Under the pieces are notes generated by a model that saw only the letters and a list, made by a program, of their open reading frames with translations, was not told the DNA's origin and made no database searches. Of a stretch of 64,000 nt of DNA, positions 1,301-64,000 are shown in pieces. Source of the DNA: Eledone cirrhosa (lineage: Eukaryota); NCBI GenBank assembly GCA_964016885.1, contig OZ024751.1, positions 15,314,001-15,378,000 of the forward strand, given 5' to 3'. Each line of letters opens with the position of its first letter. The first letter of the stretch is position 1. A program made the translations under genes and the position numbers.

Positions 1301-1303
<3 letters not shown>

Positions 1304-1526
1304 AAGGTTTTATTTAAAATTGTTGGGTTACAAGTAAATATTTACTACCCAGACAGCTTCCTAATTTAATGGTCGCTTATAATATGGTACGTCAAAATTA
1401 TTTATAAAACTGTTTATATATTGTATTTTATCTGACGAAGGCATGCCATATTTTTAATATGGTATCCCTGAAATATGTATAATGAAATAAATATGGTTTT
1501 ATAAATATAGTTTCCATTTGGTTAAT

Positions 1527-1533
<7 letters not shown>
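1301..1533 (+). mobile_element. short non-autonomous Penelope-like insertion (inverted 43-nt tail plus forward HHR-bearing segment) in (TA)n
   Basis: 1344-1533 closely matches 53208-53398; 1301-1343 is the reverse complement of ~53438-53483; TA microsatellite on both sides. Confidence 0.7.
1417..1495 (+). ncRNA. type I hammerhead ribozyme motif
   Basis: CTGACGA (1432-1438), long stem II, GAAA (1470-1473), self-complementary stem III ATATGTAT, AUA triplet (cut after 1481), stem I TATTTTAT/ATGAAATA extendable by 6 bp past a bulged G. Confidence 0.72.
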
Positions 1534-2543: not shown

Positions 2544-5500
2544 GTTCGTAGAGTGTTCTTGTTTTTAATAAATGTTTTAAAATATTTTGTTCTAAATTTT
2601 ATTTATTTTTAGATATTATCAATGACTTTCAGAGTGCATGTTGTTGTTTAGCCGTAGCTTAGCTCTAACTGAGCAAATATATGATCAAAAGTGTTCCAGT
2701 CATAGCCACCCTGTCCTTCTATCGAGCATTGTATATTGATGACAACATTATTCAATGCGCATCTTCCTTTTATTAAGATGACAGGGTGTAATTTGAAGGA
2801 CATCTGGCTAGTATTACCATTGTATTAAGATGGCAGGGTGTAATTTGAAGGACATCTGGCTAGTATTATCATTGTATTGAATATTTCAATAGATAAAGGG
2901 TAAAAAGGTAAAGACCCCCTTTTGTCACGAATGACCATGGGTTTTGCACCTAGAAAGCCCAGGCAAGATGTTTTTGTGGAAGACCAGCAGTTGCCCATGC
3001 ATACCAGTCTTCCCTCTCCAAGCCTCTGATGTCCAAGTGAAAAGCTAAGGCTGATACAGTTTGGCACTAGTGATGTTGCAACTCATTTCTACAGCTGAGT
3101 GAACTGGAGCAACATGAAATAAAGTGTCTTGCTCAAAGACCCAACACACCACCTGGTCCAGAATCCAACACCGCAGCTATGAGGTTTAGTTGTCAGCTCA
3201 TTAGTCCTTTTAATAATTATTATACTGTTGTACACTTTGGCAAGGCTCTTTCTTCTGCTTGCCACAGTCAAAGAATGAGGTAAGGGTACCACAGTCTACC
3301 TGTTGGAGGTTGATTGTGGTACTTATAATTGAATGATTTATAGCAAAAGGAGGTGTTTAAAAGGAAAAGCTTAAGCTACATTGAGAAAGTCCACTCATTA
3401 TGTAGGAGCTCTATATTATGATAGTGAGGATCATGGTGATGGTATTGCTAATAGTGGTGGTGATAATGATGATGATATTGTTAATAATAGTGAAGATCAT
3501 GCTGATGGTGATAGTGATGATGGTATTGTTGATAGTGGTGGTAATGATGATGGTATGGTTGATAGTGGTGGGGATAGAGTTGATTGTATTGCTGATAATG
3601 GTGGGGATAGAGTTGATTGTATTGCTGATAATGGTTGTGATAGAGATGACATTATTGTTAATACTGGTGATGGTTTTGTTGATTGTGGTGGGGATAGTGA
3701 TGATGGTATTGCTGATAATAGTGGTGATACTGACACTTTTTTTTTTTTTAATCTTAATAAGTAAGTCTGGTGACAGTTAAACAGCCTCTATTTTGAGGGA
3801 GTCCATTCACTTCAAGATCTAGTTGAGATCATCATCATCATCGCTTTTATGTCCATTTTCCCATACTCGAATGGGTTGAATGGGTCCTTTTCAGCATAGC
3901 ATCTCTCCACTCAACACATTCCTTCCTCATCTCCTCTGTGGGTCTTCACAATTTGATATCAACTTTTGCCACCTCTGCCCAGGCCTGAGTAGGTTAATTC
4001 TTTCATTCTGTTCTGTTTTAAATACATCAGGTACACTACATGTATATATATATACATACCTGTAGTTTATACATACCTGAAATCTCTACATACCTGTAAT
4101 CTGTATATACCTGTAGTCTATGCATACCTGTTGTCTATGCATCCATAATACTTATTAGTATATGATCTATTATCTTAGGAACAGAAATTTAACAGTGATT
4201 ACTAAAATACTTAATGAGTAGTTTGAAATGGGAGTCTACATTTCACATCTGGCCTGAGACTATTACCAGCTTTTACACCTGCCTGGATATGGCTGTTCTA
4301 CTTATCCCACCTGATACTTTCAGAATTTCTTGTTTGTTTCTCTACACCAAACAACAATCATTCAGGTGAACTCTAAAAGATTAAAGGGACTATAAAAGAC
4401 CATTGAAATTACCTGATATATCAACAGACACCTTAGATTGCACTCATCATCATCTATTCTATGTACTATACATGCACCTTTGATATTTTGTAGTGCACCT
4501 GAGCACTGTACACAATAATTTTCATCATTATTATTATTATCATCATCATCATTATCTTTGTTATTTAATGTCTGTTTTCCCTGCTAACAAGGGCTGGATG
4601 TGTTACAGACCGTTCAATACTCATACAGAGCTACTGACCTCCAGGTGGGTTGGGGCATGCATTCTACTTACATATATTCCCATACTCTATCAATTGCTAC
4701 CAAGTACATTTTACTCCTGTCACCAGCACTAGGGAAGCTGTTATGTCTTTGATACAGTTGAAGTGTCCTCTTGACCCTTTTGCTTGTCAAGTTTTCTATA
4801 GCTGGATGCTCTTCCTATCACCAACCACTTTACAGAGTGCACTGGATGCGTTTATGATGTAGATCAACAATGCTAGGGGGGTTGTCATGTCTATAGTACA
4901 ACTAAAGAGTCCTCTTGACTTTACACTACTTATATTAATCAATATCATTGAGAGGTGATATTTAAAACAAACTATGCTAGTTATGTTAATGATAGACTGA
5001 TGTCATAACAGCACAGTAGTTCAGTAAGGCTGGCTTATTATAATAGAGTCTCCATCAATTTCTACGGCGCATGTTTGATTTTTTGATCAATTGTACATCC
5101 AACTCATTGAATTAATGTATAAGTGGCTGTGTATTCCACAGACACGTGTACTCTTAATGTAATCCTCAAGTTGAATTGGAGTATCATCATTGTCATCATC
5201 ATCATTTTACATCCACTTTTACATACTTGTATGGGTCGGGGCAGGATGGTTCGAGACAAAGTTTTACAGCTGGATGCCCTTTTTGATGCCAACCATTTTA
5301 GTTGCCTCTTATGGTATGCTACACCTATTCTAAAAACTGGGAAATGTGACAAAGCTGGCTGTGTTTCGAAGAATTCATCTGAAAGGATTCCACACAGTTT
5401 CTGTCTACCTAATTGGGTTCACCTGAGGTTATGATAAAGACACTTGTCCAAGATGTCACTCAGTGGGATCAAACCTGGGACCTCATGATTAACAAGCAGA

Positions 5501-45552: not shown

Positions 45553-46175
45553 CATCATCATCATCATCATCACCGTTTTACGTCCGTTCTTCCACGCTAG
45601 CATGGGTTAGACGGGTTGTCCTGTTGTGTGCAGTGTCTGGTCGGCTGACTATGCCTTGCTCATACAGGAACTGATCTGGCTTGATTTCTACAGCTGGATG
45701 CCCTTCCTAACACCAACCTCATTTACAGTGAGTGCTGGGTGCTTTTTCGTGGCGCCTACACGTCCACTTTACAGTGTGGGCTGGGTGCTTTTTTGCCGTG
45801 GCACCTCCACGACCACCTTGCAGTGGGGGGTGTGGGGGCATATTGTTTATATGCTTCAGCATGTACCCATGGGAGGTCGGGTACTCTGTATTACTGCGTG
45901 ACGCCAGAAGTCACGGTCGTGTGTCATTGTCTTTGAGAGGTGTAATTGGGTAAGGTCGGCTTTTATCACCTCATCCCAGGTCATCTTGGGTCTCCCCACT
46001 CCGCGGTTTCCATCAACTTCTAGTGCTCTGCACCTTTTTATGCAGCTGTCATCCTTCATACGCATCACATGTCCATACCAGCGCAACCGCCTCTCCTGCA
46101 CACAGCATTTGATTCCTCTTATGCTCAGTCTCTCTCTCAATTCATTTATGCTTTGTCGACATCCATCGGAGCATG
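45553..46175 (-). mobile_element. RTE-clade LINE 3' end
   Basis: RRLRWYGHVMRM....GNRGVGRPKMTWDEVIKADL...DRDFWR; (GAT)n tail; related decayed copy at ~9066-9725 and many short tails elsewhere. Confidence 0.85.
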
Positions 46176-46924
46176 CAGGCTTCGTTTCTCTCTAATCTAC
46201 GTAAGTCTTCCACCTTCACAAACTGATTTATTTAAACAAATCACCTTATCTTGATTGTTATAATATATCTGCCATTCTCCCCTCTGGTCTTTTTCAGTCA
46301 CCTGTTTTATTTAGCAATATTCTCAGAATTTCAAACAGAACCAATTTGTTAAATAACAGATTATTGACATTCGGCCATAAAGCCCCTGTATATCTTTGTA
46401 TTAGTCATTTGTGATGCCACTTACTGTTCTGCTTAAACTAGAGTATGTATAGATATGTTATCCACCATGTTAGATGGTCATTTTGGTGGCACAATAAAAA
46501 GTACCCACTTCACCTTGTTAGGTGGTTGTTTTGGTGCCATGATAAAAAGCACCCAGTCCACTCTGTAAGACAGTCATACTGGTGACACAATGAAAAACCA
46601 CCCAGTCTACCCTGTTAGATGGTCATTTTGGTTACACGATAAAAAGCACCCAGTCCACAGTATAACATGGTTTTAGGAAGGGCATCTAGCCATAGAAACG
46701 AAGCCAAAATACAGATCCATATGCGCAAGACACGGTCTCCTGAACTGACTTGTTTCAGACACTAAACTAGGGACTGAATCACAAGCAGCAGGTAGACTAG
46801 TGCTTTTCAAATTCAAAAAGCCATTAACATATTAAAAAAAAGGTACATTTCTTTGTAGATGGTACCGTGCTTTCTTTCATACCAAATCAATTAGAATAAA
46901 ATAAAGAGTTAGAAGGCAACTTAC

Positions 46925-47287: not shown

Positions 47288-48072
47288 TAATAATAATAAT
47301 AATAATGAAATTATTGTCTACAGTGCTCAGGTGCACTACAACTCATCAAAGGTGCATGTATAGTACATAGAATAATGTACAAATATCAGGAAAATGAACA
47401 GTGTACGAGTCATGAAATACATGTGTGCGTGTGTATGGAGGGAGGATATCAGGTATAGTGTTGGCGAATCTCAGGAAACATGGAGGTTTTAAAGGGTGCA
47501 GTGTCTCGACAGCTAACTGATGCAGGTAGTTTGTTCCATGCTTCAGCAACTCTGAGTGTGAAAAAAGTTTCCAAAAGTCATGGGAGCTGTGCTGTTTTCT
47601 GACTTTGTAGGCATGCCCACGTGTGTTAGACACATGGAAATAAAAGAAAAGGTGCTCAGAGTCGTTGTTGGCAAGATGGTTAATAATTTTGTGGGTCTTT
47701 ACCAAGACAGTTGCCAGACGTCGGAGCTTCAATGTATCCATGCCCAGGGAAGCAAGGCGTTTAGAGTACGGTAGATGCCTGATGGAGGGTATTCGCTTGA
47801 TTGCACGTCTCTGAACAGTTTCCAGGCGGTCAATGTTCTGAGCAAGATAGGGGTTCCAGACTGGTGATGCAAATTCTAAGTGTGGCCACACAATAGCTAT
47901 ATACAGCTTTAAATAGAGCGGCTGACAAAGGTCTTGCTGAGCGATGCTAAAACACCCTCGCCCTTCTTGACAATTTTAGAGACGTGCTTCGTCCAACGCA
48001 AATCGTGCTGCTGACAGTAATGCCCAGGTCACGTTCACAAGAAGACTTCTTGATATTAGTGTTGTGGAGGGA
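47288..48072 (-). mobile_element. CR1-clade LINE 3' fragment with frameshifts
   Basis: ERDLGITVS...PHLEFASPVWNPYL..IDRLE.VQRRA.KRIP...LPY..RL..LG..TL..RRL; 3' UTR ending TGCACCTGAGCACTGT..(ATT)n. Confidence 0.88.
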
Positions 48073-48244: not shown

Positions 48245-48315
48245 GGTATTAGGTTCACGCTTGAGAGTGGGAGGTGGGGACGACGTTTCCAGCATAAGCC
48301 CTTCATCAGGAGAAA
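48245..48315 (-). ncRNA. degenerate minimal hammerhead core (Penelope-type relic)
   Basis: On -: CTGATGA-AGGGC-TTAT-GCTG-GAAA-CGTC; downstream CAAGCGTGAACCTAATA resembles CAAGCATTAAACTAATA after the 24922 core. Confidence 0.45.
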
Positions 48316-50195: not shown

Positions 50196-50324
50196 GAAGT
50201 AGTGAGAGAAGAGTAGTATCCATGACCTTTTATAAACCCTTTTAATACCAACCCAGCCAAAACAGGCTTTGCTTTTATGAAGCAAAACCACCCACTTCAA
50301 AGGGTTTCTTATTACATTAAAATC

Positions 50325-51400
50325 TGTGTCAGACAAACTCAGGGACCCACATCATATAAGTGTTAACCTGTATTCTACCAAGTGCCAGACACACCCAGGG
50401 ATCCATGTCTCAAACATTACTCATATGCTACCATGTGCCAGACAAACCAGAGACATACATCACACAAACGTTTCCCCTCTACTCAACCAAGTGTCAGACG
50501 CACCCAAAGACTCAAATCTCAAACGTTTCCCTCTACTCAACCAAGTGTCAGACACACCCAAAGACCCAAATCTCAAACGTTTTCCCTCTACTCAACCAAG
50601 TGTCAGACACCCCCAAAGACCCAAATCTCAAACGTTTCCCTCTACTCAACCAAGTGTCAGACACACCCAAAGACCCAAATCTCAAACGTTTCCCCTCTAC
50701 TCAACCAAGTGTCAGACATACCCAAAGACCCAAATCTCAAACGTTTCCCCTCTACTCAACCAAGTGTCAGACACCCCCAAAGACCCAAATCTCAAACGTT
50801 TCCCTCTACTCAACCAAGTGTCAGACACCCCCAAAGACCCAAATCTCAAACGTTCCCCTCTACTCAACCAAGTGTCAGACACACCCAAAGACCCAAATCT
50901 CAAACGTTTCCCCTCTATTTAACCAAGTGTCAGAGAAACCCAAAGACCTAAATCACACAAATGTTTCCCCTCTACTCAACCAAGTATCTGACACACCCAA
51001 AGACCTAAATCTCACAAACGTTTCCCCTCTACTCAACCAAGTGTCAGACACACCCGAAGACCCAAATCACACAAACGTTTCCCCTCTACTTAACCAAGTG
51101 TCAGATACACCCAAAGACCTAAATCTCACAAACGTTTCCCCTCTACTTAACCAAGTGTCAGACACACCCAAAGACCTAAATCTCACAAACGTTTCCCCTC
51201 TACTTAACCAAGTGTCAGAGAAACCCAAAGACCTAAATCTCACAAACGTTTCCCCTCTACTTAACCAAGTGTCAGACACACCCAAAGATCCAAATCTCAC
51301 AAACATTTCCCCTCTACTCACCAAGTGTCAGACACACCCAAAGACTCAAACCTCACAAATATACCCTCATACTCTACCAAGTATCAGACAAATCCAGGGA
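50325..51400. repeat. 54-57-bp minisatellite
   Basis: Unit CAACCAAGTGTCAGACACACCCAAAGACCCAAATCTC(AC)AAACGTTTCCCCTCTACT; explains the long ORFs at 50326-51517. Confidence 0.92.
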
Positions 51401-51764: not shown

Positions 51765-52047
51765 CTAGAATGGGGAAGAGAAACATTTATACATTAGTTA
51801 AATACCATTCTTTCATCGTTGCAACTTATATCCACATTAATGACGATTTGTTAAAAACTACACTATTCTATATATACATATATATATATGTATATATAGA
51901 TGTGTGTGTGTATATATGTGTATATATATGTATATATATAGTCTGTGTATATATATATATATATATATAGTGTGTGTGTGTGCGTGTGTATATATATATA
52001 TAGTGAAAAATGGAACGGGAACAAAACAGAGGCAGTACGAACAAAGG

Positions 52048-52099
<52 letters not shown>

Positions 52100-52162
52100 T
52101 GTGTGTGTATATATATATATAGTGTGTGTGTGTATATATATATATAGTCATCATCATTATCA

Positions 52163-52203
<41 letters not shown>

Positions 52204-52262
52204 TATATATATATATATATAGGGTGTGTGTGTGTATATATATAGTCATCATCATTATCATC

Positions 52263-52306
<44 letters not shown>

Positions 52307-52341
52307 CGATATTAAACAAATGGAAACTATATTTATAAAAC

Positions 52342-52420
52342 CATATTTATTTCATTATACATATTTCGGGGATACCATATTAAAAATATGGCATGCCTTC
52401 GTCAGATAAAATACAATATA
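52342..52420 (-). ncRNA. type I hammerhead ribozyme motif (sense to UAP1 pre-mRNA)
   Basis: Mirror of 53280-53358; CTGACGA at 52405-52399; predicted cut between 52356 and 52355. Confidence 0.75.
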
Positions 52421-53279
52421 TAAACAGTTTTATAAATAATTTTGACGTACCATAAATATGAGCGACCATTATGTAGGAAGCTGGTTTGGTAGTGAAGTGT
52501 TTATAAATATTTAGTGTTAAGCACAGTTATAAAGAAAGACGGAGAAAAAGAAGAAATGTATGTAAAGAAAAACAGAGAGAGATAGGGGAGAGAGAAATAG
52601 GGAGGAGGTGAAAAAAGAGAGGCAACCGAAGGCAACAGATGAATAATAATAATTCATCATACAAATTGAGAGGTTTAAGAGGGAGGGAGTACGGTAATTA
52701 TTTAGTTATAGTGTTAAGGACAGTTATAGAGGAGACGGAAAGAAAGAAAAAATTAGAGATGAAGAGAAAACAGACAAAATAATAATAATTATATAGGGGG
52801 AGGTGGAAATCAAGAGAGAAATAAGAGAGAACTCTCTTATTTCTCTCTTGATTTCCACCTCCCCCTATATAATTATTATTATTTTGTCTCCCTCTTTCTT
52901 TTCCCCCCACCTCTATCTCTCTCTGTCTGTTTTCTCTTCATCTCTAATTTTTTCTTTCTTTCCGTCTCCTCTATAACTGTCCTTAACACTATAACTAAAT
53001 AATTACCGTACTCCCTCCCTCTTAAACCTCTCAATTTGTATGATGAATTATTATTATTCATCTGTTGCCTTCGGTTGCCTCTCTTTTTTCACCTCCTCCC
53101 TATTTCTCTCTCCCCTATCTCTCTCTGTTTTTCTTTACATACATTTCTTCTTTTTCTCCGTCTTTCTTTATAACTGTGCTTAACACTAAATATTTATAAA
53201 CACTTCACTACCAAACCAGCTTCCTACATAATGGTCGCTCATATTTATGGTACGTCAAAATTATTTATAAAACTGTTTA

Positions 53280-53358
53280 TATATTGTATTTTATCTGACG
53301 AAGGCATGCCATATTTTTAATATGGTATCCCCGAAATATGTATAATGAAATAAATATG
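53280..53358 (+). ncRNA. type I hammerhead ribozyme motif
   Basis: CTGACGA 53295-53301; stem II GG-C-ATGCCATATT/TTT/AATATGGTAT-CC-CC; GAAA 53333-53336; palindromic stem III; AUA cut after 53344; 8+6 bp stem I. Confidence 0.75.
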
Positions 53359-53568
53359 GTTTTATAAATATAGTTTCCATTTGTTTAATATCGTATATCT
53401 ACTCCAAAAACTTGTCGAGTGCTTTATATCAGTTATAAAATATTTACTTGTTGTAACCCAACAATTTTAAATAAAACTTTTGCATATATATATATATATA
53501 TATATATAGTGCATATATATATATATAGTGTGTGTGTGTATATATATATAGTCATCATCATTATCATC

Positions 53569-53627
<59 letters not shown>

Positions 53628-53780
53628 CATATATATATATAGTGTTTATATATATAAATATTGTGTGTGTGTGTATATATATATATATAGTGTGTGTGTG
53701 TATATATATATATAGTGTGTGTGTGTATATATATAGTGTGTGTGTGTGTGTATATATATAGTGTGTGTGTGTGTATATAT

Positions 53781-53829
<49 letters not shown>

Positions 53830-53906
53830 TGTGTGTATATATATATATATTTATTGTGTGTATGTGTATACACATATATACACACATACATGTTTGGTGT
53901 CTACAA

Positions 53907-54720
<814 letters not shown>

Positions 54721-54726
54721 TGTTAC

Positions 54727-54902: not shown

Positions 54903-55450
54903 CTGTGGCAGGTGGTAGAGGTAATATATTAACAGAGTGACCACTGATCATTATATACCTGTGGCAGGTGGTAGAGGTAAAATATCAATAGAGTGACCAC
55001 TGGTCATTATATACCTGTGACAGGAGGTAGAGGTAAATTAACAGAGTGACCACTGGTAATTATATACCTGTGGCAGCTGGTAGAGGTAAAATATTAACAG
55101 AGTGACCACTGGTCATTATATACCTGTGGCAGGTGGTAGAGGTAAAATATTAACAGTGACCACTGGGTGACCACTGGTCATTATATACCTGTGGCAGGTG
55201 GTAGAGGTAAACTATTAACAGAGTGACCACTGGGTGACCACTGTCATTATATACCTGTGGCAGGTGGTAGAGGTAAAATATTAACAGAGTGACCACTGGT
55301 CATTATATACCTGTGGCAGGTGGAAGAGGTAAAATATTAACAGTGACCACTGGTCATTATATACCTGTGGCAGGAGGTAGAGGTAAAATATTAACAGAGT
55401 ATTACTGTATGACCACTGGTCATTATATACCTGTGGCAGGAGGTAGAGGT
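54881..55450 (-). repeat. 53-66-bp tandem array duplicating a UAP1 splice acceptor and exon start
   Basis: Ten CAG|GTATATAAT units with first exonic base at 54902 (real), 54958, 55014, 55067, 55123, 55188, 55254, 55310, 55364, 55430. Confidence 0.92.
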
Positions 55451-56312
55451 GATAGTGGAGATAGTGGTGGTGGTAGAGGTAGTGGAGGTAGACAGTGGTG
55501 TGGAGGTAGAGATAGTGGTGGTGGAGGTAGTGGTGGTAGAGATGGTGGAGATAGTGGTGGTAGAGATAGTGGTGGTGGTGGTAGAGATAGAGGTGGTAGA
55601 GATAGTGGTGGTGGTGGTAGAGGTAGTGGAGGTAGAGATAGTGATGGTGGTGGTAGAGGTAGTGGAGGTAGAGGTGGTGGTGGTAGAGGTAGTGGAGGTA
55701 GAGATAGTGGTAGTGGTGGTAGAGATAGTGGAGGTGGTGGTGGTAGAGTAGAGGAGGTAGAGATAGTGGTGGTGGTAGAGGTAGTGGAGGTAGAGATAGT
55801 GGTGGTGGTGGAGGTAGTGGAGGTAGAGATAGTGGTGGTGGTGGAGGTAGTGGAGGTAGAGATAGTGGTGGTGGTGGAGATAGTGGAGGTAGAGATAGTG
55901 GAGGTGGTGGTAGAGGTAGTGCAGGTAGAGATAGTGGTGGTGGAGGTAGTGGTGGTGGTAGAGATAGCAGTGGTGGTGGTGGTAGAGATAGTGGAGGTAG
56001 AGATAGTGGTGGTGGTGGTGGTAGAGGTGGTGGTGGTAGAGGTAGTGGTGGTAGAGATAGCGGTGGTGGAGGTAGTGGTGGTGGTGGTAGAGATAGTGGA
56101 GGTAGAGATAGTGGTGGTGGAGGTAGTGGTGGTGGTGGTGGTAGAGGTAGTGGTGGTAGAGATAGTGGTGGTGGAGATAGTGGTGGTGGAGATAGTGGTG
56201 GTGGAGATAGTGGTGGTGGAGATAGTGGTGGTGGAGATAGTGGTGGTGGAGATAGTGGTGGTGGTGGTAGAGATAGTGGAGGTAGAGATAGTGGTGGTGG
56301 AGATAGTGGTGG
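55450..56312. repeat. GGT/GGA/TAG low-complexity repeat
   Basis: GTAGAGATAGTGGTGGTG-type triplet mosaic. Confidence 0.9.
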
Positions 56313-56535
56313 GTGTATGTGTGGTCACTGGTCATTATATACCGGAGGCAAAGTGGTAGAGGTAGAGGTGATACTGGTGGTAGTAGTGAACATAACTTAA
56401 AGGTTTCTTAAATAAATTTACAATGGAATCCTTTTAATATAAGTGTGAACATTTTAAAATGGGCATCTTTGTATCATAGAATCAGGGCAATTCAGTAAGT
56501 TTGGTGTCAAAAAGGGTCAACAAAAAGCAAAATCA

Positions 56536-58570: not shown

Positions 58571-58994
58571 TTTATGTTTTGTGGTTTATTAATGCATAGT
58601 GAGAGGGTGCTAGAGAGGAAGAACCTACCAGTACAGGACTGGTACTTTTTTTCTTTTTATCAATCTCAAAAGAATGAAAAGTAAAGTTGACGCCCCCTTT
58701 CCCCTGCTTCTGGCAGTATTTGATGTCAGAGAGCTAGAATGAATATACATAAAATTTTATTTGACATTCTAACAACTGTCAAAAAAATAGATTAGACTAA
58801 ATATTGTGAACTGCACCAGACTACACTGCACTAGAGAAGAAACTTTCAAATATTTACTTAGTTGTCTAGAGGAAATACCAGATGATCAGGGAATGCTACA
58901 TGTGATAGACTAGCTCTCTAGCCAGGGGCAGATTTCACTCATCTGCTTTAGATAAACACAACATTGGAGTAAAATACTTGTTTTTTTTTTATGT

Positions 58995-59465
58995 TTAACC
59001 CTTTAGCATTTACATTATTCTATATATACTATTGTATTTTCATGGTAAAGGCTTTATTTCACATAATGTCTCACATAATGTCTCACATAATGTCTCACAT
59101 AATGTCTCACATAACGTCTCACATAACGTCCCACATAACGTCCCACATAACGTCCCACATAACGTCCCACATAACGTCCCACATAACGTCCCACATAACG
59201 TCCCACATAACGTCTCACATAACGTCTCACATAACGTCTCACATAACGTCCCACATAACGTCCCACATAACGTCCCACATAACGTCTCACATAACGTCTC
59301 ACATAATGTCTCACATAATGTCTCAATATCGAATCGATGAGATTTTATTATTTATTTTGAGAACAATACCTAAACATCAGTATGAGGGGTCGGTTAGGGC
59401 TGGTGTGAACAGAAAGAGGTGAGAGAATTCTGGCCAGATATGGCTGGTTTAAATGCTAAAGGTTA
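58995..59465 (-). mobile_element. MITE family A copy with internal 12-bp tandem expansion
   Basis: TIRs intact; about 22 copies of CACATAA(C/T)GTC(T/C) at 59059-59325. Confidence 0.8.
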
Positions 59466-59999: not shown

Positions 60000-60449
60000 A
60001 TACATATATGTATATATATATGTGTATATGTATATGTATATATATGTGTGTATATGTATATATATATGTGTATATGTATATATGTATATATATATATATG
60101 TATATGTATATACATATATATGTATCATTTCATCATCATCATCATTTCATTTTACGTCCACTTTTCCCTGCTTGCAAGGGTGGGACGGGAACTGATTCTG
60201 GCTTGGTTTCTACAGCTGGATGCCCTTCCTAACACCAACCTCATTTACAGTGAGTGGTGGGTGCTTTTTTGCCTCCACGACCACTTTGTAGTGGAATGAT
60301 AGGGACCCCATTTCTACAGCTGAGTAAACTGAAGCAATGTGAAATAAAGTGTCTAGCTCAAGGAAACAACACATCACTCGGTCTGAGAATTGAACTCAAA
60401 ACCTTTCGATTGCAAGGCCAATGCTCTAACCACTAAGCCATGTGCCTCC

Positions 60450-60499
<50 letters not shown>

Positions 60500-60787
60500 A
60501 ACGAAGGAAATGTGGTAAGGAACCAGGTGGACCATAACGCACCAAAGTACTCAATACTTAGGGTAGTAGAGTGGGTAATATATGTATATATATATATATA
60601 TACATATGTTATAATAGGCAATCAAGAAAGATACGGTGGCATCCGAATTTTCAAAATACAAAGTTGAAATGATTGCCTATTATAACAGTGTAGCAATAAT
60701 GGACTGAAATTCCGATGAAACAATTGTTAATACGTGGATTAAATTCTTTTGTAACTGTTTACCTTCGTCCTATTTCTCTTCTTTGAC

Positions 60788-64000
<3,213 letters not shown>

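What the first reader, a model, noticed from the sequence alone, without database searches (positions are those of the whole stretch)
52302..53483. Giant palindromic, ribozyme-bearing insertion in a UAP1 intron that could silence its own hammerhead
Seen: a 528-nt left arm and 567-nt right arm are reverse complements around a 2-nt loop. The only difference I see is 39 nt bounded by TGTCT microhomology. Each arm holds a full type I hammerhead fold, pointing outward. Established: Penelope-like retroelements carry hammerheads in their pseudo-LTRs and often leave inverted, truncated terminal segments; coleoid cephalopods edit dsRNA heavily by ADAR. Inference: whichever strand is transcribed, the antisense arm is made first, so the ribozyme emerges into a ready >500-bp duplex. 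This would protect the UAP1 pre-mRNA from cleavage while creating an ADAR/Dicer substrate and a cruciform-prone site. A-to-I editing could loosen the duplex and free the ribozyme.
Basis: partly seen in the sequence, partly recalled or inferred. Interest (0 to 1): 0.85.

Follow-up and report, generated by a model that had tools for sequence, protein, structure and literature searches.

The report
Mirror-image Penelope-like retrotransposon insertion, octopod intron
This 1.2-kb hairpin in an intron of an octopus-type UAP1 gene is one of an estimated 1,300 or more mirror-image insertions of a Penelope-like jumping gene, likely made when the element copies its RNA from two fixed start points into both ends of a cut TA repeat; nothing found suggests it is kept to silence its ribozyme.

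Summary
The palindrome is in the assembly as described: 528/567-nt arms, 39-nt gap, one type I hammerhead per arm, inside a UAP1 intron. It is not special. It is a 5'-truncated insertion of a Hydra-clade Penelope-like element (742-aa telomerase-like RT with C-terminal GIY-YIG-like domain; about 2,300-2,600 exact end junctions fused to (TA)n). Head-to-head arms are the family's normal product, and longer gap-free palindromes exist (634, 1,284, 1,508 nt).

The family obeys a strict rule. Ends occur at two fixed sites, A and B, 85 nt apart. All 54 outward-facing pairs in a positional sample have one A and one B end. Either arm may be longer, both arms share source variants, and many stop at one Inr-like site. 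This fits dual priming on sense RNA.

The hammerhead would be buried in duplex. But it is a dimer-type PLE ribozyme of a class with little or no activity alone, so no protection is needed. Editing was not testable. No read spans this locus. The scan noted similar palindromic PLE stubs before in other genomes.

The parts
52302..52831 (-). Left arm ('A arm'): inverted, 5'-truncated copy of the element's 3' UTR/pLTR, outer end at family site A fused to (TA)n; lacks 39 nt
   Evidence: the same end junction occurs 2,525 times by exact pattern (3 of the first 30 are tail read-throughs)
52832..53483 (+). Right arm ('B arm'): direct, 5'-truncated copy including the tail, outer end at family site B fused to (TA)n
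   Evidence: 95% identical to L031 element positions 3509-4182; end junction found 2,615 times
52890..52928 (+). 39-nt segment absent from the left arm; family-typical, so the left arm carries a deletion
   Evidence: 16 of 16 other arms read across it carry a 40-54-nt segment
53205..53212 (+). Inr-like TCACTACC; A at 53207 is the family's hard 5' stop and likely transcript start (mirror at 52493, minus strand)
   Evidence: 89 vs 34 matches; 15 of 30 arms begin here
53287..53352 (+). Type I PLE hammerhead: core CUGACGA 53295-53301, stem II 53303-53331, GAAA 53333-53336, palindromic stem III, predicted cut 53344/53345. Antisense to the UAP1 pre-mRNA
52348..52413 (-). Mirror hammerhead, sense in the UAP1 pre-mRNA; predicted cut 52356/52355; transcribed after its antisense copy
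53394..53398 (+). Site A (TCG|TATAT): likely RT start 1, with microhomology to the (TA)n target
   Evidence: reads ending at 53398 then (TA)n: 5,716 in run X12
53399..53483 (+). 85-nt tail present on one arm only
   Evidence: 87-93 nt as trimmed there, in 45 of 45 measurable elements
53484..53489 (+). Site B (TTTGC|ATATAT): likely RT start 2, merging into the (TA)n target; about 50 nt upstream of the ORF ATG in donor copies
51765..54726 (-). UAP1 intron (2,962 nt, GT-AG) holding the insertion, about 540 nt from the acceptor and 1,240 nt from the donor
1301..1530 (+). Second family insertion in the window: short inverted B stub (1301-1343), then an A arm starting exactly at ACTACC (1344), hammerhead at 1432 with no antisense partner

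Best explanation
The palindrome is a young-looking, 5'-truncated insertion of an abundant Hydra-clade Penelope-like retrotransposon into a (TA)n run of a UAP1 intron, and its mirror symmetry is likely a by-product of dual priming during insertion. Shown: family insertions end at two fixed sites, A and B, 85 nt apart downstream of the hammerhead, both TA-like and fused to (TA)n. Each paired insertion uses one A and one B end, head to head; either arm can be the longer; the two arms resemble each other far more than other copies. Inferred: the element's nuclease cuts both strands of (TA)n; one target 3' end pairs with site A and the other with site B on uncleaved sense RNA from one donor; two cDNAs are made and joined where they stop. 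Priming near the transcript's 5' end gives the common 0.3-0.5-kb palindromes ending at ACTACC. Priming in the downstream pLTR of a read-through transcript gives longer ones such as this, whose arms stop 2 nt apart about 375 nt upstream of that site. The 39-nt loss is likely a slippage deletion. Consequence (predicted): the UAP1 pre-mRNA carries a >500-bp hairpin that buries an already weak ribozyme and is a probable passive ADAR substrate, with no evidence of selected function.
For: Family and donor: (L031: inverted pLTR, 742-aa ORF, 3' pLTR with tail, (TA)n both sides), 82, 38, 75. End counts 2,525 (A, slightly inflated) vs 2,615 (B); only 16 exact read-throughs past B. Positional sample, first 147 Mb of C1: 93 A and 100 B matches give 54 outward pairs within 6 kb, 51 AB, 3 'AA', 0 BB (p=1.5e-12 against 50%). 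The 3 'AA' are AB on inspection. A arm longer 18, symmetric 17, B arm longer 16 of 51. Arm divergence within an element median 0.6% vs between elements 6.5% (39 elements); shared minority alleles 198 vs 20.6 shuffled, max 60. Hard 5' stop. Independent raw reads (X12) show A-end/(TA)n junctions and short palindrome centres. In vitro precedent in another PLE: both target strands are cut and extended and RT starts at two internal sites that bracket the tail (PMC11167929).
Against: No listed read spans this locus. 85 of 193 sampled ends had no exact-pattern partner within 6 kb; many have variant partners but some may be solo arms. Same-molecule templating is not shown: the partner arm was strictly closest in only 15 of 39 (8 tied, 15 had a closer arm elsewhere, 1 no comparator), and 28 of 151 recurrent minority alleles were in one arm only. 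Arm identity could also come from later gene conversion. PAc initiates at RNA sites not homologous to the target, whereas sites A and B are TA-like, so the precedent is not exact. The GIY-YIG fold hits are weak (E 0.2-0.8). No tree with named Hydra references was built. No transcript data confirm the start site.
Confidence: 0.8

Rival explanations
1. Same element, but the inverted arm arises by self-priming or fold-back of one template (antisense-RNA self-priming as proposed for Adineta Penelope, or a cDNA U-turn), with ends A and B set afterwards by nuclease resolution.
For: Proposed in PMC3846280. It explains arm identity and symmetric centres: 11 of 34 adjacent palindromes co-terminate within 2 nt, some on self-complementary words such as AGCT.
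Against: A copy of the B cDNA cannot be longer than it, yet A is longer in 18 of 51. A copy of the A cDNA cannot carry the tail, yet B always does. This centre is blunt with loop bases templated on the A side. Sense-strand Inr stop. In vitro data favour internal RT starts on target DNA.
Confidence: 0.13
2. One reading: the palindrome is retained because it sequesters the hammerhead and protects UAP1 pre-mRNA, with A-to-I editing able to release cleavage.
For: Antisense-first geometry and full pairing are predicted. The hammerhead core is conserved in donors (0.8% variation at 11 core positions vs 49% at N7). Octopus hyper-edits dsRNA heavily and palindromic repeats are ADAR targets (PMC5625713).
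Against: The geometry is automatic for this family. Single PLE min-hammerheads showed no detectable cleavage and PAc's needs protein; closing stem III in the monomer costs energy. Core conservation reflects selection in donor elements, not here. A copy with an unpaired hammerhead sits in the same window. Zero substitutions between arms suggests a recent or homogenised copy, not an old conserved one.
Confidence: 0.03
3. The palindrome at this locus is an assembly or fold-back read artefact.
For: Arms are 100% identical outside the gap; flanks are microsatellites; no spanning read is listed.
Against: The inversion stops exactly at family site A, and UAP1 exons continue in order on both sides. 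The tail is on one arm only and the arms differ by 39 nt. Dozens of other loci share the architecture, and family palindrome centres recur in independent short reads.
Confidence: 0.04

Closest known systems
Hydra clade of C-terminal EN+ Penelope-like elements (Craig et al. 2021, PMC8557442; includes Hydra-1_Obim from Octopus bimaculoides)
   Same: Single ORF with RW[K/R], DKT, divergent RT, CxCX5C linker, CxxC and CxH, C-terminal GIY-YIG-like domain; hammerhead in the pLTR; (TA)n targeting; inverted 5'-truncated copy; tail at one end.
   Different: Unit about 4.1 kb with a 1.7-kb 3' UTR (listed Hydra families 1.4-3.0 kb); tail 85 nt rather than 30-40; hammerhead sequence differs from the Hydra-1_Obim row; thousands of copies. 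The strict one-A-one-B count and the hard 5' stop were not seen in the parts read.
PAc (Poseidon, Anolis) in vitro mechanism (Frangieh et al. 2024, PMC11167929)
   Same: Two internal RT start sites downstream of the hammerhead bracket the tail; both DNA strands are cut and extended; uncleaved RNA is the template.
   Different: PAc start sites are not homologous to the target and showed no strand preference. Here both sites are TA-like, and each paired insertion uses each site exactly once.
Opposite-strand min-hammerhead pairs and inverted pLTRs (Cervera & de la Pena 2014, PMC4209133; Arkhipova et al. 2013, PMC3846280)
   Same: Dual hammerheads 100-700 bp apart on opposite strands; head-to-head pLTRs with junction palindromes; Inr-like TCACT in the pLTR; microhomology deletions.
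   Different: Those papers invoke truncation or antisense self-priming; arm-length symmetry here favours dual priming.
L1 twin priming (recalled, not from a call)
   Same: Both target ends prime cDNA and the cDNAs are joined in the middle.
   Different: L1's two segments copy non-overlapping parts of the RNA. Here they copy the same stretch, giving a palindrome.

Membership tests
EN+ Penelope-like element | Telomerase-like RT in a single ORF | tested here: met
   L031 742-aa ORF; model pLDDT 90.5, best fold hit TERT, E 1.3e-9; YRDD in 107 of 108 aligned proteins. Pfam gave no hit.
EN+ Penelope-like element | C-terminal GIY-YIG endonuclease | tested here: inconclusive
   Invariant Y622, Y635, G637, R646. 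Best fold hits T4 EndoII, I-TevI and UvrC GIY-YIG only at E 0.2-0.8. Pfam GIY-YIG E 0.062 in 1 of 14. Consistent but weak.
EN+ Penelope-like element | pLTR, inverted 5'-truncated copy, tail at one end | tested here: met
EN+ Penelope-like element | Hammerhead motif in the pLTR | tested here: met
   Core variation 0.8% vs N7 49%; stem I A-U/G-U/G-C covariation; stem III stays self-complementary. No Rfam hit.
Hydra clade | RWK motif and DKT in place of DKG | tested here: met
   RWR and DKT in L031; RW[KR] in 99 and DK[TS] in 107 of 108
Hydra clade | CxCX5C linker; CxxC and CxH around the EN end; no CCHH | tested here: met
   CNCRNKS[KN]C in 22 of 24 locus hits (overlapping loci not merged; L031 has C>Y); CDLC and CRH; absence of CCHH judged by eye from that alignment
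Hydra clade | Insertion into (TA)n | tested here: met
Hydra clade | Generally short (<3 kb) | tested here: not met
   Unit about 4.1 kb. A tendency in the source paper, not a strict criterion.
Hydra clade | RT phylogeny groups with named Hydra elements | not tested
   No named reference proteins were available as tool sequences
Active self-cleaving hammerhead | Site-specific self-cleavage | not testable with these tools
   Architecture predicts dimer or protein dependence
Non-LTR retrozyme | Tandem direct repeats of a hammerhead unit | tested here: not met
   The arms are inverted, not tandem; definition from bioRxiv 10.64898/2026.07.22.740005 passages

The most novel reading that the evidence does not exclude
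A dimeric Hydra-clade RT-nuclease primes two cDNAs on one RNA molecule, at two TA-like sites paired with the two ends of a cut (TA)n, the second displacing the first. Every insertion is then an obligate one-A-one-B hairpin whose arms are identical at birth and can be dated like LTRs. This one family has seeded over a thousand ready-made dsRNA hairpins in an octopod genome, contributing to its hyper-editing load.
Probability: 0.35. Interest if true: 0.6.

Novelty: new member of a known kind. Interest (0 to 1): 0.32.

Why it matters
The locus itself is ordinary. The family is useful because it is young and abundant enough to turn a qualitative PLE trait (inverted pLTR, tail on one end) into counts: 54 of 54 pairs are A+B, arm length is unbiased, and there is a sharp 5' stop. 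These discriminate between dual priming and self-priming, a question PMC8557442 lists as open, and they name exact RT start sites and a target for an in vitro test. The insertions are also a plausible bulk source of perfect dsRNA in an animal group known for heavy ADAR editing.

Tried and rejected
Rfam: no hammerhead hit at gathering or E<=10; miRNA hits over the centre are generic hairpin matches far below their cut-offs. Pfam, NCBIfam and PDB sequence searches did not name the ORF. Sequencing runs: no RNA holder listed, which says nothing about expression or editing. Read laying: no listed piece spans the locus, microsatellite flanks were skipped, only part of the rows were shown, and summed contig depth was not used as a copy number. 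Hyper-edited retrocopies: rare A>G 46 per 20,192 A vs T>C 41 per 23,606 T on the sense strand, at most 3 per arm in 279 arms; no sign, but this tests donor RNA only. The apparent AA pairs were rejected as a subfamily variant of site A. My first stem II register (extra A plus G-C pair) was wrong, so the constrained energy is void and was redone. In one search the script mislabelled 4 read-through arms (L173, L174, L183, L184) as 5' ends; I recounted by eye to 15 of 30, which includes both arms of two insertions and two loci with identical junctions. One search kept a few mis-paired arms and uses similarity-selected loci; one search repeats the test on the positional sample. Literature searches found no paper stating a one-A-one-B rule or dual priming for PLEs; subscription papers such as Arkhipova 2006 were not searchable. 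bioRxiv supplements were not seen. Earlier-findings look-ups by place and by sequence were empty.

Full report
OBSERVATION. The palindrome is in the sequence. Arms 52302-52776 and 52924-53398 are perfectly complementary. An inner 58-bp stem closes an AA loop at 52830-52831, and 39 nt (52890-52928) are missing from the left arm. Hammerhead cores lie at 53295 (+) and 52405 (-). UAP1 is on the minus strand: exons match PF01704 and solved UAP1/AGX structures, and an Octopus UAP1 protein maps in order across 56769-40914. The element lies in the 2,962-nt GT-AG intron 54726-51765. The best named hits to an adjacent exon are Argonauta (80%) and Octopus (77%), so an octopod-type host is likely.

WHAT IT IS. 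The arm belongs to a large repeat family (1,989 candidates, 40 scored). Extended loci include L031, which reads: (TA)n, inverted 3' segment, 742-aa open ORF, 1.7-kb UTR, hammerhead, tail, (TA)n. The predicted structure (108-row alignment, pLDDT 90.5) matches telomerase RT best (E 1.3e-9). The C-terminal domain has only weak fold hits, to GIY-YIG nucleases (E 0.2-0.8), with invariant Tyr, Tyr, Gly and Arg. The motifs that PMC8557442 section 11 gives for the Hydra clade are present: RW[K/R], DKT, CxCX5C, CxxC, CxH, hammerhead and (TA)n targeting. Size is larger than the listed families and no tree was built. L031 carries C>Y in the linker, so it is an intact frame, not a proven active copy.

THE PALINDROME IS THE NORMAL PRODUCT. 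Of the 40 best B-ended copies, 25 have an adjacent inverted arm ending at the same point as our left arm (similarity-selected). Exact patterns give 2,525 'A' junctions and 2,615 'B' junctions fused to TA, and 16 read-throughs past B; 3 of the first 30 A matches are a subfamily's tail read-through. In the first 147 Mb of C1, 93 A and 100 B matches form 54 outward-facing pairs within 6 kb: 51 AB, 3 AA, 0 BB. The 3 AA are AB on inspection. The other 85 ends had no exact-pattern partner; many have variant partners. Scaling 51 pairs per 100 B ends to 2,615 gives about 1,300 pairs (my estimate). Among the 51, 39 have paired arms of 100 nt or more and 11 of 500 nt or more; 6 gave no measurable arm. 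L096 (634 nt), L212 (1,284) and L215 (1,508) are longer gap-free palindromes than ours. A second A+B insertion lies at window 1301-1530. Opposite-strand hammerhead pairs and inverted pLTRs with a one-sided tail are already published (PMC4209133 section 5; PMC8557442 passages; PMC3846280 passages).

MECHANISM. Shown: (1) two fixed ends 85 nt apart, both TA-like in the element itself. (2) One of each per paired insertion. (3) A arm longer in 18, symmetric in 17, B longer in 16 of 51. (4) Arms of one element differ by a median 0.6% vs 6.5% between elements (39 elements); shared minority alleles number 198 vs 20.6 in shuffles (50 pairs); recurrent minority alleles are in both arms 123 times and in one arm 28 times. 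(5) A hard 5' stop at ACTACC (53207): 89 arms carry the motif, 34 also carry the 4 nt before it, and by inspection 15 of 30 begin there. The site reads TCACT, like the Inr-like element noted in Adineta pLTRs. Inferred: both strands of (TA)n are cut and each 3' end primes a cDNA, one at A and one at B, on sense RNA from the same donor; the cDNAs are joined bluntly or by microhomology. This extends the PAc result that both strands are extended and that two RT starts bracket the tail (PMC11167929 parts 1-2 of 4). Fold-back of a single cDNA fails on points 2 and 3; antisense self-priming is not fully excluded. Our arms pass the 5' stop and end 2 nt apart with no microhomology, as expected if both cDNAs ran off one broken RNA or shared a pause. 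One molecule versus two from one donor is not resolved: the partner arm was strictly closest in only 15 of 39, and gene conversion could also homogenise arms. The 39-nt segment is present in 16 of 16 other arms read across it, so it is a deletion; the second TGTCT is private to this locus.

THE RIBOZYME. Across about 255 arms, 11 core positions vary by 0.8% on average, N7 by 49% (all four bases) and 11.1 by 54%. Stem I shows A-U, G-U and G-C at one pair, and stem III alternates between two self-complementary words. So the motif is selected in donor elements. Its stem III is 3 bp with a 2-nt loop, the form that needs a second copy. Single PLE min-hammerheads gave no detectable cleavage (PMC4209133 passages), and PAc's cleaves only with protein and is dispensable for insertion. 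Both arms here span the cut site, so their template was uncleaved. In the UAP1 pre-mRNA the antisense arm comes first and the hammerhead is predicted fully paired (-108.8 vs -12.8 kcal/mol). Sequestration is therefore real in prediction but guards against little, and follows automatically from head-to-head geometry. Octopus hyper-edits dsRNA and palindromic repeats are good ADAR targets (PMC5625713 passages), so editing of this hairpin is plausible but untested here. Genomic copies show no hyper-edited templates.

IS IT REAL? Contigs of X1-X3 (one sample, possibly the assembly's own) and raw reads of X12 (another study) were laid. They confirm the family: 5,716 X12 reads end at 53398 and run into (TA)n, and joints such as 52459-53241 reproduce short palindrome centres. 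They do not span this locus. The inversion ending at site A, the one-sided tail, the 39-nt gap and correct exon order argue against an artefact.

VERDICT. Observation confirmed; interpretation partly supported; new member of a known kind. The earlier notes e1-7858806 and e1-9995956 (seen after my analysis) reach similar readings for other genomes and are not independent evidence. Interest 0.32, carried by the family-level counts rather than by this locus.

Noticed in passing
window 1301-1530: Second insertion of the same family (older subfamily): short B stub plus A arm starting exactly at ACTACC; its hammerhead has no antisense partner.
   Followed up: yes
window 24922 (+) and 48309 (-): Two further minimal hammerhead-like cores (CUGAUGA...GAAAC) with short stem II, probably stubs of other PLE families; the one at 48309 is sense within a UAP1 intron.
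   Followed up: no
L153:300-2780 (G000:C4 about 319.06 Mb): Three tandem units of about 1.05 kb, each with a rearranged family 5' region (ORF fragment, post-hammerhead segment, tail, ATG) and long TA repeats; a non-autonomous derivative lacking the hammerhead core.
   Followed up: partly
L044:7479-9791 and L049:8558-9286: ORFs of a second, divergent Hydra-like PLE family (771 aa open frame in L044) near copies of this family.
   Followed up: no
window 45856-46191 (-) and 47346-47975 (-): Fragments resembling LINE reverse-transcriptase C-termini inside UAP1 introns (resemblance recalled, not searched).
   Followed up: no
window 60383-60440 (-): Partial tRNA-like match (Rfam 32.5 bits), possibly a tRNA-derived SINE head.
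   Followed up: no
window 50281-51330; 53930-54400; 55280-56330; 58990-59340; 60770-64000: Several minisatellite and microsatellite arrays in and upstream of UAP1; they give the long low-complexity ORFs and the 75-78% inverted-repeat hits.
   Followed up: no
L031 element 3' UTR; window 52512-52606 and 53094-53188: An internal degenerate direct repeat of about 95-110 nt (75-80% identity) in the pyrimidine-rich part of the pLTR region.
   Followed up: no
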